Source: a virus (Duplodnaviria; Heunggongvirae; Uroviricota; Caudoviricetes). From it: DNA of 24,753 nucleotides. The stretch lies in IMG/VR virus record IMGVR_UViG_2648501392_000012; one strand, 5' to 3'. A program made the position numbers and the translations under genes. This document shows, piece by piece, positions 1-24,753 of the stretch. Below the pieces are notes generated by a model that was given only the letters and a program-made list of their open reading frames with translations, was not told where the DNA came from and did no database searches. Position 1 is the stretch's first letter, and each line of letters begins with the position of its first letter.

Positions 1-94
1 GACTGGCCGGCAAACCGGGTACGCGATCTGTTGCCCTGGAAAGTTGATCTGAGCTCTCAGTAAATATCAATACGGTTCTGACGAGTCGCTTACA
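1..94 (+). repeat. Left copy of an inverted, diverged repeat; encodes (reading inward, + strand, stop at 61..63) the C-terminal ~20 codons (...DWPANRVRDLLPWKVDLSSQ*) of a gene whose body lies outside the window
   Basis: Reverse complement of 1..94 aligns with 24655..24753: both start with TGTAAGCG, share AGAACCGTATTGA, and the outer ~37 nt are ~81% identical by hand alignment; the encoded peptide tails are paralogous. Confidence 0.6.
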
Positions 95-428
95 CCTGAA
101 ATACCATTTGCGCATCTGCATGGCCCATCTGGTTTGCTATAAATGCCGGGTTAGCACCAGCTGTCAGCGACCAGCAGGCATAAGTATGTCTCGACTGATA
201 TGATTTTCGATGGCGGAGTCCGGCACGTTTTATCGCTGCGTCCCACATCTGCCTTATTGAGTCAACGGTAAAATGGTCACCATAATTTTTTACATTATCA
301 TTGACGCCATTTTCACGTGCAATCTGTGCAACACAAGCTCCAGGTTGTGATGCCAGTTCCACCATACGAAGTTTGAATTCATTCGAATAGTTTTTACGAG
401 GTTCTTTTCGCCAGTCCTGTAATTCCAT
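90..428 (-). pseudogene. Truncated tyrosine-recombinase (phage integrase) C-terminal fragment; its N-terminal ~45 residues resemble an IS3-family transposase OrfA helix-turn-helix; likely chimeric remnant
   Basis: ORF-track protein: C-terminal half ...RHTYACWSLTAGANPAFIANQMGH... matches the conserved integrase box II region but stops before the catalytic Tyr; N-terminal PRKNYSNEFKLRMVELASQPGACVAQIARENGV matches the IS3-type HTH pattern (PRKxxSxEF...VARExGV). Confidence 0.5.
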
Positions 429-993
429 ACTTAGATGTCCGTCTATATCAGATGGGCGTCTAAGTTACCAATTCTCGTCTGATGGCTACATACGGCGGTC
501 AGTTTACGCTTACAAAAAGCACTATCGGCATGCACAAAAAAATCTTTAATCGTATTTCTTGTGTCATTAATTGTTTGATGTTCAGATTGTTTTCCTCGCG
601 GGCTGGCGCGCCTCAGAAAGTAAAGCTTGTTGACAGGGGTAAACGTTCGGCAATAATTTTCTGCCGCATGCGGGTGTTGCATAAAACGTGCTACGTTCCT
701 TTATCGACAGGTCAGGTCACCGCTCACCCGCCGACGAGAAAGCAACACTGACATGCTAAAGCAAAAAATAGATGAATAAGTTGAGTTGTGCATATGTAGC
801 CTGACCGTCACAAAGTATATGGTGTCTGTACCAGTAAGATGATGGCCGGACTCTTTAAAAACGAGCTGACCTGCACAATACAGGATGGACTTAGCAATGG
901 CTGCTCCTGGCACAAAGCGGACAGTGATCACCGTTCTTACGACTACTTTCTGACTTCCTTCGTGACTTGCCCTAAGCATGTTGTAGTGCGATA

Positions 994-1019
994 CTTGTAA
1001 TGACATTTGTAATTACAAG
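994..1019 (+). promoter_or_regulatory. relBE operator/promoter palindrome (CTTGTAAT-N-ATTACAAG) immediately upstream of relB
   Basis: Perfect inverted repeat CTTGTAATGACATTTGTAATTACAAG overlapping the Shine-Dalgarno AAGAGGTG 6 nt before the relB ATG; RelB-RelE autoregulation at such an operator is established. Confidence 0.55.
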
Positions 1020-1030
1020 AGGTGTAAGAC

Positions 1031-1270
1031 ATGGGTAGCATTAACCTGCGTATTGACGATGAACTTAAAGCGCGTTCTTACGCCGCGCTTGAAAAAATGG
1101 GTGTAACTCCTTCTGAAGCGCTTCGTCTCATGCTCGAGTATATCGCTGACAATGAACGCTTGCCGTTCAAACAGACACTCCTGAGTGATGAAGATGCTGA
1201 ACTTGTGGAGATAGTGAAAGAACGGCTTCGTAATCCTAAGCCAGTACGTGTGACGCTGGATGAACTCTGA
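1031..1270 (+). CDS. relB: RelB antitoxin (79 aa)
   Basis: Protein MGSINLRIDDELKARSYAALEKMGVTPSEALRLMLEYIADNERLPF... recognised as RelB; length and position match the relBE operon; stop overlaps the relE start (ATGA-type coupling). Confidence 0.93.
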   Translation: MGSINLRIDDELKARSYAALEKMGVTPSEALRLMLEYIADNERLPFKQTLLSDEDAELVEIVKERLRNPKPVRVTLDEL

Positions 1271-1557
1271 TGGCGTATTTTCTGGATTTTGACGAGCGGG
1301 CACTAAAGGAATGGCGAAAGCTGGGCTCGACGGTACGTGAACAGTTGAAAAAGAAGCTGGTTGAAGTACTTGAGTCACCCCGGATTGAAGCAAACAAGCT
1401 CCGTGGTATGCCTGATTGTTACAAGATTAAGCTCCGGTCTTCAGGCTATCGCCTTGTATACCAGGTTATAGACGAGAAAGTTGTCGTTTTCGTGATTTCT
1501 GTTGGGAAAAGAGAACGCTCGGAAGTATATAGCGAGGCGGTCAAACGCATTCTCTGA
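1270..1557 (+). CDS. relE: RelE mRNA-interferase toxin (95 aa)
   Basis: Protein MAYFLDFDERALKEWRKLGSTVREQLKKKLVEVLESPRIEANKLRGMPDCYKIKLRSSGYRLVYQVIDEKVVVFVISVGKRERSEVYSEAVKRIL recognised as RelE. Confidence 0.93.
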   Translation: MAYFLDFDERALKEWRKLGSTVREQLKKKLVEVLESPRIEANKLRGMPDCYKIKLRSSGYRLVYQVIDEKVVVFVISVGKRERSEVYSEAVKRIL

Positions 1558-1628
1558 ACCAAAGCATGACATCTCTGTTTCGCACCGAAGGTGACACTTC
1601 TGCTTTGCGTTGACAGGAGAAGCAGGCT

Positions 1629-1784
1629 ATGAAGCAGCAAAAGGCGATGTTAATCGCCCTGATCGTCATCTGTTTAACCGTCATAGTGACGGCACTGGTA
1701 ACGAGGAAAGACCTCTGCGAGGTACGAATCCGAACCGGCCAGACGGAGGTCGCTGTCTTCACAGCTTACGAACCTGAGGAGTAA
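1629..1784 (+). CDS. hokD: Hok-family small membrane toxin (51 aa), HokD/RelF-like
   Basis: Hand translation (below the 60-aa ORF-track cutoff): MKQQKAMLIALIVICLTVIVTALVTRKDLCEVRIRTGQTEVAVFTAYEPEE*; single TM helix plus conserved Hok C-terminus; 70 nt after relE. Confidence 0.85.
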   Translation: MKQQKAMLIALIVICLTVIVTALVTRKDLCEVRIRTGQTEVAVFTAYEPEE

Positions 1785-5048: not shown

Positions 5049-5348
5049 AAAAATTCCTTAATACTGATAACTTGGCGCACTATACACACGTTCCTGAAGA
5101 AAGCTATAGTTTTTTGATGGGGTTGAAGATGGCTGGATGTCTAAAATAAACATTGCTTCATATGTTCAACTATGCGTTAATGATTGCGTCGGTTTGAAGA
5201 ACAGACGATATACGAAGTAGTTTACTAAAGCAGTTCTCATTTCAGGTGTTATTCACTTATTCCTTCTTTGAGTCTCTCCAATTAAGTACGAAGTCGTTTC
5301 TGTTATGCAAACCATTTATGCCGAAAGGCTCAAGTTAAGGAATGTAGA

Positions 5349-5564
5349 ATGTCAAATAAAATGACTGGTTTAGTAAAATGGTTTAACGCTGATAAAGGTT
5401 TCGGCTTTATTTCTCCTGTTGATGGTAGTAAAGATGTGTTTGTGCATTTTTCTGCGATTCAGAATGATAATTATCGAACCTTATTTGAAGGTCAAAAGGT
5501 TACCTTCTCTATAGAGAGTGGTGCTAAAGGTCCTGCAGCAGCAAATGTCATCATTACTGATTAA
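5349..5564 (+). CDS. cspB: Cold-shock protein CspB (71 aa)
   Basis: Protein [38 protein letters not shown]... with canonical RNP1/RNP2 motifs; divergent from cspF. Confidence 0.9.
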
Positions 5565-5846
5565 AATTCATCGCTCGTCTGTATACGATAACGAAGAAGG
5601 CTGATGCCTGAGTAGAGATACGGACAGAGTAGTGAATATTGGATCTCTTTAATAAAAAGTAAGGAGGTCCAATACATGAAACAATGGCTAGCATATTTGG
5701 CAAAATCTTAATCAGGAAAAGTATGCTAACCATTGTGGTGAAGTGCAGGTTTGCTGCATGAATAGTTTTACAGCAGAAGCTAACTGCTGGCATGGCAAAA
5801 CAAAGTGCGTAAGTGGATGACTCCCACAAAAAGCACCACAATCTCA

Positions 5847-7873: not shown

Positions 7874-8234
7874 GGTAATATTAAATCGGAACATTTACAT
7901 CGCGGAATGTAAAATTTGAATAAAAAGGACTCTTCCATGAGCCAAAATTCCTGAAATCTTAAGGGTAAGATAAAAGGTCTTAATCAGAATGACACGTTTT
8001 ATTAATAAATAAAGCTATTCTTTCATTGCTGTGTTTTTCTTTACAAAAGTAATCCTTGCTATGGGTGGTTAATCATGCGTTAATGGTGTTCTGGTTTGTT
8101 ACAAATTTATCTGAAGCAGTCATTGTTATAATTTTATTATTTGTACCTCTTGAGATTTCCTTGTTGGTTTTTCTCTCTGATATTTTTTTCGGACCATTCT
8201 GCCCAAGGGCTAATTTCTTCAAAAGGTAATAATT

Positions 8235-8447
8235 ATGTCTAATAAAATGACTGGTTTAGTGAAATGGTTTAACCCTGAAAAAGGTTTTGGTTTCATCACG
8301 CCGAAAGATGGCAGCAAAGATGTGTTTGTCCATTTCTCAGCAATTCAGAGCAACGATTTCAAAACATTAACTGAGAATCAGGAAGTTGAATTTGGTATTG
8401 AGAACGGACCTAAAGGTCCTGCCGCTGTTCATGTAGTGGCGCTTTGA
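8235..8447 (+). CDS. cspI: Cold-shock protein CspI (70 aa)
   Basis: [70 protein letters not shown]. Confidence 0.9.
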
Positions 8448-8535
8448 GGTAGACAATATTACAAACCATATTCACTTTAGATGCCCGTGTTGTCATGGTT
8501 CCCAGTATAGAACATCATCTTTTGATGTTTCTGAC

Positions 8536-24556: not shown

Positions 24557-24682
24557 ATGACAGAGACAGAATCAGCGATTCTGGCGCACGCCCGGCGATG
24601 TGCGCCAGCAGAGTCGTGCGGCTTCGTGGTGAGAACACCGGAGGGGGAAAGATATGTAAGCGTGCAGCAAGAACCGTATTGA
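24557..24682 (+). pseudogene. Truncated tail protein K homolog (41 codons before a stop)
   Basis: MTETESAILAHARRCAPAESCGFVVRTPEGERYV matches the lambda K N-terminus, then diverges exactly where the right flank repeat begins (TGTAAGCG at 24655) and stops at 24680..24682. Confidence 0.6.
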
Positions 24683-24753
24683 CGGGGATGTGTTATTCAG
24701 TCGGCAGTGCTACGCGCCAGGGGAGCAGTTCGCCGACCCGGTTTATCGGCCAG
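24655..24753 (-). repeat. Right copy of the inverted, diverged flank repeat; encodes on the minus strand (stop at 24693..24695) the C-terminus ...WPINRVGELLPWRVALPTE* of a gene lying beyond the window
   Basis: See the left copy: same TGTAAGCG boundary, same AGAACCGTATTGA block, ~81% identity in the distal 37 nt, paralogous encoded tail. Confidence 0.6.

What the first reader, a model, noticed from the sequence alone, without database searches (positions are those of the whole stretch)
90..428. Chimeric ORF: IS3-type transposase HTH fused in-frame to an integrase C-terminal fragment lacking the catalytic Tyr
One 112-aa reading frame contains an N-terminal segment typical of IS3-family OrfA helix-turn-helix proteins and a C-terminal segment that is clearly the box II region of a tyrosine recombinase (RHTYACWSLTAGANP...QMGH), but it terminates before the conserved catalytic tyrosine. 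This looks like a scar of IS-mediated deletion through the prophage integrase, leaving the prophage unable to excise.
Basis: partly seen in the sequence, partly recalled or inferred. Interest (0 to 1): 0.4.

Follow-up and report, generated by a model that had tools for sequence, protein, structure and literature searches.

The report
Prophage integrase scar fused to IS66 fragment
The 112-codon reading frame is a real but accidental fusion of the first 46 codons of an IS66-family accessory gene to 66 codons of a broken Qin-type prophage integrase: ordinary prophage decay, seen in one E. coli lineage only.

Summary
The chimeric ORF at 90..428 (-) is real. Residues 1-46 are 100% identical to the start of TnpA, the accessory protein of ISEc23, which is an IS66-family element and not IS3. 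Residues 47-112 equal residues 326-391 of the 426-aa integrase of Qin-type prophages next to rspB.

Three separate events made it:
- **ISCro1 insertion.** This IS66-family element (right end at 93, 8-bp duplication ACCTGAAA at 94-101) landed one codon before the inferred catalytic Tyr392. Its terminal GTAAGCG supplies the stop codon.
- **ISEc23 insertion.** It landed between ydfV and flxA (end at 513, duplication AAAAAGCA at 514-521).
- **A deletion of roughly 8-16 kb.** It joined integrase codon 326 to tnpA codon 46 at 292/293, across only 2 bp of shared sequence, inside the IS and not at an IS end.

E. coli E110019 has both insertions, base for base, but not the deletion. No complete E. coli genome (0 of 5,426) and no plasmid spans the junction. 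Among 5.8 billion proteins only this sequence, found on 2 contigs, is full length.

The product keeps a cut helix-turn-helix and two of the integrase active-site residues, so it is almost certainly inert. Interest is low.

The parts
1..93 (+). Right end of an IS66-family element, ISCro1. It holds the last 63 nt of its transposase gene tnpC (stop TAA at 61-63) and the terminal inverted repeat ending ...GTCGCTTAC at 93. The contig starts inside this repeat.
   Evidence: Window 1-293 is 100% identical to E110019, where the sequence is annotated as an ISCro1-family transposase next to a truncated integrase. The end was mapped by comparison with the uninterrupted integrase of K-12 and O26. The whole element is 2,699 bp in E110019.
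94..101 (.). 8-bp target-site duplication of the ISCro1 insertion (ACCTGAAA), right-hand copy.
   Evidence: In E110019 the same 8 bp flank both ends of ISCro1 (...CCGTATACCTGAAA|GTAACCGG... and ...CGCTTAC|ACCTGAAATACC...). An 8-bp duplication is the reported rule for IS66 (PMC6778807).
94..293 (-). Fragment of the Qin-type prophage integrase (intQ allele), codons 326-391. It keeps Arg II (chimera R80) and the box II His (chimera H103). It lacks Arg I, the beta-hairpin Lys and the Tyr nucleophile.
   Evidence: Over window 91-293 the only mismatch to the K-12 intQ pseudogene and to the intact O26 integrase is at position 93, which belongs to the IS end, so the integrase fragment 94-293 is identical. 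Protein alignment. Active-site positions come from the alignment to Tn1549 Int structures and from family conservation.
292..293 (.). Deletion junction. The 2 bp (AC on the + strand, GT of the Val46 codon) are shared by both parents.
   Evidence: Three-way alignment of the window, ISEc23 of E110019 and the integrase of E110019. Integrase identity runs up to 293 and IS identity runs down to 292.
294..513 (-). 220-bp remnant of the left (tnpA-proximal) end of ISEc23, IS66 family: terminal inverted repeat (GTAAGCGTAAACTGACC... read inward from 513), leader, and tnpA codons 1-46 (291..428).
   Evidence: Window 292-1100 is 100% identical to E110019, where a complete 2,532-bp ISEc23 (tnpA-tnpB-tnpC) sits at the same site. 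The end was mapped against the uninterrupted ydfV-flxA spacer of O26.
514..521 (.). 8-bp target-site duplication of the ISEc23 insertion (AAAAAGCA), ydfV-side copy.
   Evidence: The same 8 bp flank both ends of ISEc23 in E110019 and occur once in O26.
90..428 (-). The chimeric ORF: TnpA(1-46), then Int(326-391), then a stop codon. The last Val codon (GTG) and the stop (TAA) are completed by the ISCro1 terminal sequence GTAAGCG.
   Evidence: The protein is deposited as 'integrase [Escherichia coli]' and forms a single-member cluster on 2 contigs.
701..1557 (.). Context: ydfV (701..1006, -), relB (1031..1270, +) and relE (1270..1557, +). These Qin-prophage genes anchor the locus.
   Evidence: Annotation under the 100% match in E110019 and O26.

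Best explanation
The ORF is an accidental in-frame fusion left by stepwise decay of a Qin-type lambdoid prophage integrated next to rspB.

1. **Shown.** ISCro1 (IS66 family) inserted into the integrase gene after the second base of codon 391, with an 8-bp duplication. This separated Tyr392 and the last 35 codons from the rest of the gene. The IS terminus GTAAGCG completes a Val codon and gives TAA.
2. **Shown.** ISEc23 (IS66 family) inserted about 20 bp upstream of flxA, in the ydfV-flxA spacer, with an 8-bp duplication.
3. **Junction shown, mechanism inferred.** One deletion then removed everything between integrase codon 325 and tnpA codon 47. The lost material is integrase codons 1-325, 2.31 kb of ISEc23 and, by comparison with relatives, xis, the exonuclease gene, dicB/ydfD, the immunity region and flxA. 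The total is roughly 8-16 kb, depending on what the ancestor carried. The ends share only 2 bp and both lie in A/T-rich runs. The most likely mechanism is therefore illegitimate, microhomology-type recombination rather than transposase action or homologous recombination.
4. **Inferred.** Both genes read the same way, so the 1-in-3 chance of keeping frame was met. The fused ORF keeps the tnpA start codon and leader, so it may be transcribed and translated. The product has the HTH cut within its last helix (Pfam profile positions 4-38 of 75). It keeps only Arg II and the box II His of the recombinase active site. It is expected to have no DNA-binding, transposition or recombination activity.
5. 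**Inferred.** The prophage remnant cannot excise on its own.
For: - Composition of the ORF.
- Both IS insertions mapped to the base, with 8-bp duplications. The 8-bp duplication as an IS66 rule: PMC6778807.
- E110019 carries both insertions with 0 mismatches over 293 and 809 nt, and still has the complete ISEc23 and integrase codons 1-391 with xis and exo.
- A third IS66-family junction (ISEc22) at the other end of the window is also shared with E110019.
- Order and orientation of the retained flanks match the K-12 and O26 gene order, as expected for a simple deletion.
- The window is about 12.85 kb shorter than the O26 prophages over the same span.
- 2-bp junction overlap.
- No IS-end-like sequence at the junction (PWM -7.8 bits against +25 to +35 for real ends).
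- The fusion is a singleton. 0 of 5,426 complete genomes and 0 of 72,556 plasmids span the junction. Only one full-length protein cluster exists among 5.8 billion.
- Tyr392 is present in all 10 homologues that reach it.
Against: - The mechanism of the deletion cannot be read from a single junction.
- Only a contig is available, so the 'deleted' DNA could in principle lie elsewhere in that genome.
- No reads were available to confirm the junction.
- No expression data exist. The simple scan found no sigma-70-like promoter on the minus strand upstream of 428, so even transcription is uncertain.
- The assignment of Tyr392 as the nucleophile rests on conservation. The HMMER alignment to Tn1549 Int places it one residue after the position where the deposited variants differ Y/F.
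Confidence: 0.85

Rival explanations
1. Transposase-made adjacent deletion. An IS66-family transposase would have used a real or surrogate IS end to attack a nearby target and delete the DNA in between.
For: Three IS66-family elements sit in this prophage. The integrase side of the junction reads GTAA on the minus strand, the same four bases that begin IS66-family ends.
Against: Neither side of the junction is an IS terminus. The ISEc23 breakpoint is 220 bp inside the element and the integrase breakpoint is 200 bp from the ISCro1 end. Beyond GTAA the putative surrogate end scores -7.8 bits on a matrix built from five real ends (+25 to +35 bits), and 7.5% of random positions score as well. No IS copy remains at the junction, so recombination between two IS copies is also excluded.
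Confidence: 0.08
2. Assembly artefact. The junction would be a false join made by a short-read assembler across the 220-bp ISEc23 repeat.
For: The window is a whole draft contig that begins and ends in IS66-family repeats. The 220-bp IS remnant is repeated sequence. No complete genome shows the junction.
Against: A false join is expected at the edge of, or within, shared sequence, and the integrase/tnpA join shares only 2 bp. A contig from a second assembly record (GCA_001284525.1) is identical over 8,428 nt including the junction. A 220-bp repeat can be spanned by ordinary paired reads.
Confidence: 0.04
3. A functional fusion protein, for example a truncated TnpA acting as a regulator of IS66-family transposition, or a domesticated DNA-binding protein.
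For: The ORF is intact and in frame, and it keeps the native tnpA start and leader.
Against: It is a singleton with no evolutionary spread. Frame retention has a 1-in-3 prior. The HTH match ends at profile position 38 of 75, and the integrase part lacks Arg I, Lys and Tyr. The structure prediction gave no confident fold (pLDDT 40.6), though that was a single-sequence run and is weak evidence.
Confidence: 0.02

Closest known systems
intQ, the Qin prophage integrase pseudogene of E. coli K-12 next to rspB. Intact alleles exist in O26 strains (e.g. WP_000877011.1).
   Same: Same locus (rspB side of the Qin-type prophage) and the same gene. Over window 91-293 the only mismatch is at position 93, which belongs to the IS end. 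Like K-12 intQ, it is an IS-damaged remnant.
   Different: K-12 intQ lost its N-terminus to IS2 and keeps its C-terminus with the Tyr. Here only codons 326-391 remain, cut on one side by ISCro1 and fused on the other to tnpA.
ISEc23 (IS66 family) accessory protein TnpA, 141 aa (WP_000422741.1).
   Same: Residues 1-46, the leader, the terminal inverted repeat and the 8-bp target duplication are identical to the complete element at the same site in E110019.
   Different: Codons 47-141 of tnpA, all of tnpB and the transposase gene tnpC are gone. The remnant cannot transpose by itself.
The Qin-type prophage of E. coli E110019 (NZ_CP035751.1).
   Same: It shares all three IS66-family insertion junctions with the window (ISCro1 in int, ISEc23 before flxA, ISEc22 after the minor tail protein L gene) at 100% identity.
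   Different: E110019 lacks the int-tnpA deletion. It has its own rearrangement instead: two inverted IS3 copies flanking an inverted segment.
Other truncated or fused TnpA variants in the protein database, e.g. P0096, a TnpA N-terminus fused to a TnpC C-terminus.
   Same: The same TnpA start is followed by unrelated sequence after an internal break, which shows that such accidents are common for this IS.
   Different: Different partners and breakpoints. None carries integrase sequence.

Membership tests
IS66-family accessory protein TnpA | Sequence match to the curated TnpA models or to a TnpA from a complete element | tested here: met
   46/46 identity to the TnpA of a complete ISEc23. NCBIfam IS66_access_TnpA gives E 2.4e-16, but 59.9 bits against a cut-off of 150, because only 42 residues match. 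It is a fragment of a member, not a full member.
IS66-family accessory protein TnpA | Lies just inside an IS66-type terminal inverted repeat (GTAAGCG...) that is flanked by an 8-bp target duplication | tested here: met
   End at 513, duplication AAAAAGCA at 514-521. The 8-bp rule is from PMC6778807.
IS66-family accessory protein TnpA | Followed by tnpB and the DDE transposase gene tnpC in the same element | tested here: not met
   Integrase sequence follows codon 46. tnpB and tnpC are present in E110019 and absent here.
   The only shared feature is the broad Pfam HTH_Tnp_1 model. The specific models and the identical full-length relative are IS66. The flanking inverted repeat is IS66-type.
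Tyrosine recombinase / phage integrase | Catalytic domain match (Pfam PF00589) | tested here: inconclusive
   27.1 bits, exactly the gathering score. Only profile positions 102-162 of 172 are covered.
Tyrosine recombinase / phage integrase | Complete active site: Arg I, Lys, His/x-x-Arg II, His/Trp and the Tyr nucleophile | tested here: not met
   Only Arg II (R80) and His (H103) are present. Arg I (R230 of the intact protein, aligned to the position where the deposited Tn1549 Int variants differ R/K) lies in the deleted part. Tyr392 is cut off by ISCro1.
Tyrosine recombinase / phage integrase | N-terminal arm-binding and core-binding domains | tested here: not met
   Residues 1-325 of the 426-aa protein are absent.

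The most novel reading that the evidence does not exclude
The fused ORF is expressed from the retained tnpA leader, and the 112-aa product acts on the several IS66-family elements in the same genome, for example as a truncated-TnpA inhibitor or modulator of transposition. A weaker variant is that the A/T-rich stretch around tnpA codons 46-50 is a recurrent breakpoint in this IS: several database variants diverge there, and one diverges exactly after Val46.
Probability: 0.02. Interest if true: 0.35.

Novelty: already known. Interest (0 to 1): 0.07.

Why it matters
It matters little beyond annotation. The protein is deposited as 'integrase', but it is a non-functional fusion pseudogene and should be flagged as one.

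The locus is a clean, base-resolved example of how a lambdoid prophage is locked in and worn down. One IS cuts the integrase one codon before its nucleophile. A later deletion removes the excision, recombination, immunity and cell-killing genes (dicB, ydfD in relatives). The relBE and hokD toxin-antitoxin genes, Q, and the lysis, head and tail genes stay.

The shared IS junctions also mark the source strain as a close relative of E110019, which could serve as a lineage marker.

Tried and rejected
1. **IS3 OrfA identity for the N-terminus.** Rejected. The specific models and an identical full-length relative are IS66 TnpA.
2. **Surrogate IS66 end at the junction.** GTAA is noted on the integrase side. 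A position weight matrix from five real ends gave -7.8 bits, and 7.5% of 95,388 random positions do as well. Rejected.
3. **Homologous recombination between IS copies.** Rejected. No IS copy lies at the junction and the overlap is 2 bp.
4. **Inversion rather than deletion.** Rejected. Both retained flanks keep the order and orientation seen in K-12 and O26.
5. **A natural protein family with this architecture.** Rejected. The search of 5.8 billion proteins found only the query itself at full length.
6. **Structure prediction of the chimera.** Mean pLDDT was 40.6 from a single sequence, which is uninformative. No fold search was attempted.
7. **Promoter and terminator scan.** Nothing was found on the minus strand upstream of the ORF, which is uninformative for IS66 promoters.
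8. **Han et al. 2001 on IS679/IS66 (PMC95320).** The paper is not held in the library. What I say about tnpA-tnpB-tnpC organisation beyond the annotations rests on my own knowledge.
9. **Rfam scan.** It found only two cspA thermoregulators far from the feature.

Full report
**The observation**

The minus strand of window 90..428 carries an ATG-started ORF of 112 codons. Pfam finds two non-overlapping matches: HTH_Tnp_1 at residues 11-45 (E 4.4e-08) and Phage_integrase at residues 50-109 (profile positions 102-162 of 172, E 4.2e-06, exactly at the gathering score). NCBIfam's best hits for the N-terminal part are the two IS66 TnpA models (E 2.4e-16 and 4.7e-10). No IS3 model appears. The 'IS3-type' label is not. 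It arises because IS3 OrfA and IS66 TnpA share the broad Pfam model.

**The two parents**

A megablast of window 1-1100 against 5,426 complete E. coli genomes found no genome holding the whole stretch. It did find a 100% match for 292-1100 in E. coli E110019. There the sequence is the tnpA end of a complete ISEc23 (tnpA-tnpB-tnpC, IS66 family) lying next to ydfV and relB.

Window 1-293 is also 100% identical to E110019, but about 10 kb away. At that place an ISCro1 (IS66 family) abuts a C-terminally truncated tyrosine recombinase gene next to rspB. The same integrase is the intQ pseudogene of K-12. It is intact, at 426 aa, in O26 strain RM10386.

At the protein level, residues 1-46 of the ORF equal TnpA 1-46 (46/46). 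Residues 47-112 equal Int 326-391.

**Mapping to the base**

| Feature | Window position | Evidence |
|---|---|---|
| Integrase identity runs up to | 293 | |
| IS identity runs down to | 292 | |
| Shared bases at the join | 2 bp: AC, the GT of the Val46 codon | |
| ISEc23 end (GTAAGCGTAAACTG... read inward) | 513 | |
| ISEc23 duplication AAAAAGCA | 514-521 | |
| ISCro1 end (...GTCGCTTAC) | 93 | |
| ISCro1 duplication ACCTGAAA | 94-101 | |

- The ISEc23 duplication AAAAAGCA flanks both ends of the complete 2,532-bp element in E110019 and occurs once in O26. The site is about 20 bp upstream of the flxA start codon.
- The ISCro1 duplication ACCTGAAA flanks both ends of the 2,699-bp element in E110019.
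- An 8-bp duplication is the reported rule for IS66 (PMC6778807).
- Read on the coding strand, the intact gene has GTA TTT CAG GTA TAC GG (V F Q V Y G). The window has GTA TTT CAG GTG TAA GC.
- The IS therefore entered after the second base of Val391. Its terminal GTAAGCG completes a Val codon and supplies the stop, immediately before the Tyr codon.

**The catalytic tyrosine**

Tyr392 lies in the motif MGHADAQMVFQVYGKWM. It is the only Tyr after the box II His. It is present in all 10 homologues that reach that column, which are 56-98% identical to the intact protein.

The closest solved relative is Tn1549 Int (6emy, 6emz, 6en0; E about 1e-8). The three deposited variants differ at two positions. 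The R/K position aligns with Arg230 of the intact integrase. The Y/F position aligns one residue before Tyr392. From memory, these are the R225K and Y379F active-site variants.

The one-residue offset means that calling Tyr392 the nucleophile is an inference from conservation, not from the alignment. Either way the chimera ends at Val391 and has no Tyr. It also lacks Arg I and everything N-terminal of residue 326. It keeps Arg II (R80) and the box II His (H103).

**History**

E110019 shares the ISCro1 junction, the ISEc23 junction and a third IS66-family junction: ISEc22 after the minor tail protein L gene, at window 24656-24753. There are no mismatches at any of the three. The source strain is therefore a close relative, and all three insertions predate the deletion.

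E110019 still has the whole ISEc23 and integrase codons 1-391 with xis and the exonuclease gene. The retained flanks in the window keep the K-12 and O26 order and orientation: rspB side, int(-)..., ydfV(-), relB(+). The event is therefore a simple deletion.

Compared with O26 prophages, the window is about 12.85 kb shorter over the same span. In O26 the corresponding interval holds the following:
- flxA and ydfW
- an IS fragment
- replication and immunity genes
- ydfA, dicB and ydfD
- the exonuclease gene and xis
- most of int

Depending on what the ancestor carried, the loss was about 8-16 kb, including 2.31 kb of ISEc23. This is my estimate.

**Mechanism of the deletion**

Neither breakpoint is an IS terminus. 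No IS copy remains at the join. The overlap is 2 bp, between two A/T-rich runs.

The integrase side reads GTAA, the first four bases of IS66-family ends, so I tested a surrogate-end model. A weight matrix from five real ends scores the site at -7.8 bits, against +25 to +35 for real ends. Of 95,388 control positions, 7.5% score as well or better. The model is rejected.

The best-supported mechanism is illegitimate, microhomology-type recombination. This is an inference from the junction anatomy. Keeping frame had a prior of 1 in 3, since both genes read the same way.

**Distribution**

- A junction-spanning query (window 225-360) is covered at 80% or more in 0 of 5,426 complete E. coli genomes and 0 of 72,556 plasmids. 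Every match covers only one half.
- Among 5.8 billion non-redundant proteins, the only full-length hit is the identical sequence (P0001, one member, 2 contigs). Its longest contig is 24,753 bp, the length of this window. All other hits cover only the integrase half (at most 65%) or the TnpA half (at most 45%).
- The second contig (GCA_001284525.1) is identical to the window over 8,428 nt.
- This is a private scar of one lineage, not a protein family.

**Function**

- The HTH_Tnp_1 match stops at profile position 38 of 75.
- By comparison with the full TnpA (...GVNDNV|IFKWLRLWQ...), the cut falls a few residues into what I take to be the last helix of the HTH. That helix assignment is my inference.
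- The recombinase part has two of the active-site residues and no DNA-binding domains.
- A single-sequence AlphaFold run gave pLDDT 40.6, which is uninformative.
- No minus-strand promoter-like site was found upstream of the ORF by the simple scan. The leader is identical to that of the intact IS, and ydfV reads toward the ORF, so transcription is possible but unproven.
- The most likely state is an inert pseudogene product or none at all.
- The prophage remnant has lost int and, by inference from the gene order in relatives, xis, so it cannot excise by itself. It keeps relBE, hokD, rem, ydfU, the Q-like antiterminator, and the lysis, head and tail genes.

**Verdict**

The IS family was wrong. 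The loss of the Tyr has a different cause: a direct IS insertion. The deletion ends in an IS but does not look IS-made. This is ordinary prophage decay of a well-known kind, already deposited (and mis-named 'integrase'). Interest is low.

Noticed in passing
window 24656-24753: The window ends in the terminal repeat of a third IS66-family element, ISEc22 (GTAAGCGTGCAGCAAGAACCGTATTGAC...). It is inserted just after the minor tail protein L gene. The junction is shared at 100% with E110019 and with O39:NM F8704-2. The contig is therefore bounded by IS66-family repeats at both ends, which explains the contig breaks.
   Followed up: partly
L001 2183-3396 and L003 10405-11618 (E. coli E110019): In E110019 two inverted IS3 copies flank the relBE-Q-csp segment of the same prophage. 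That segment is inverted relative to K-12, O26 and the window. This is an IS3-mediated inversion in the sister lineage.
   Followed up: partly
L004 13242-16199 (O26 RM10386); hits H26, H28-H30: ISCro1-type IS66 elements sit in or near the int-xis module of Qin-type prophages at several different positions in different strains: in xis in O26, and near int at other offsets in four further genomes. This suggests repeated independent hits on this module.
   Followed up: no
proteins P0024-P0036, P0096, P0108: Many deposited variants of this TnpA diverge from the canonical sequence between codons 46 and 50, where the DNA has T4 and A3 runs. Most look like frameshifts and could be sequencing errors. 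P0026 diverges exactly after Val46. P0096 is an in-frame fusion of a TnpA N-terminus to a TnpC C-terminus.
   Followed up: partly
window 5188-5580 and 8090-8474 (+): Two full-length matches to the Rfam cspA thermoregulator (158.8 and 115.7 bits). They lie at or upstream of prophage-borne cold-shock genes of the kind called cspB and cspI in relatives.
   Followed up: no
intact integrase L004:16234-17514, residues 356-392: This integrase family has Tyr where the His of the usual H-x-x-R motif is expected (YQSRH). Its conserved C-terminal Tyr is 10 residues after the box II His, where the Y/F variant position of Tn1549 Int is 9 after its own. As I recall, 9 is also the more usual spacing in tyrosine recombinases.
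   Followed up: partly
window 1031-1784: relB-relE and hokD, two toxin-antitoxin modules, lie directly beside the deletion and are retained. The neighbouring early genes that are toxic in relatives (dicB, ydfD) are gone.
   Followed up: no
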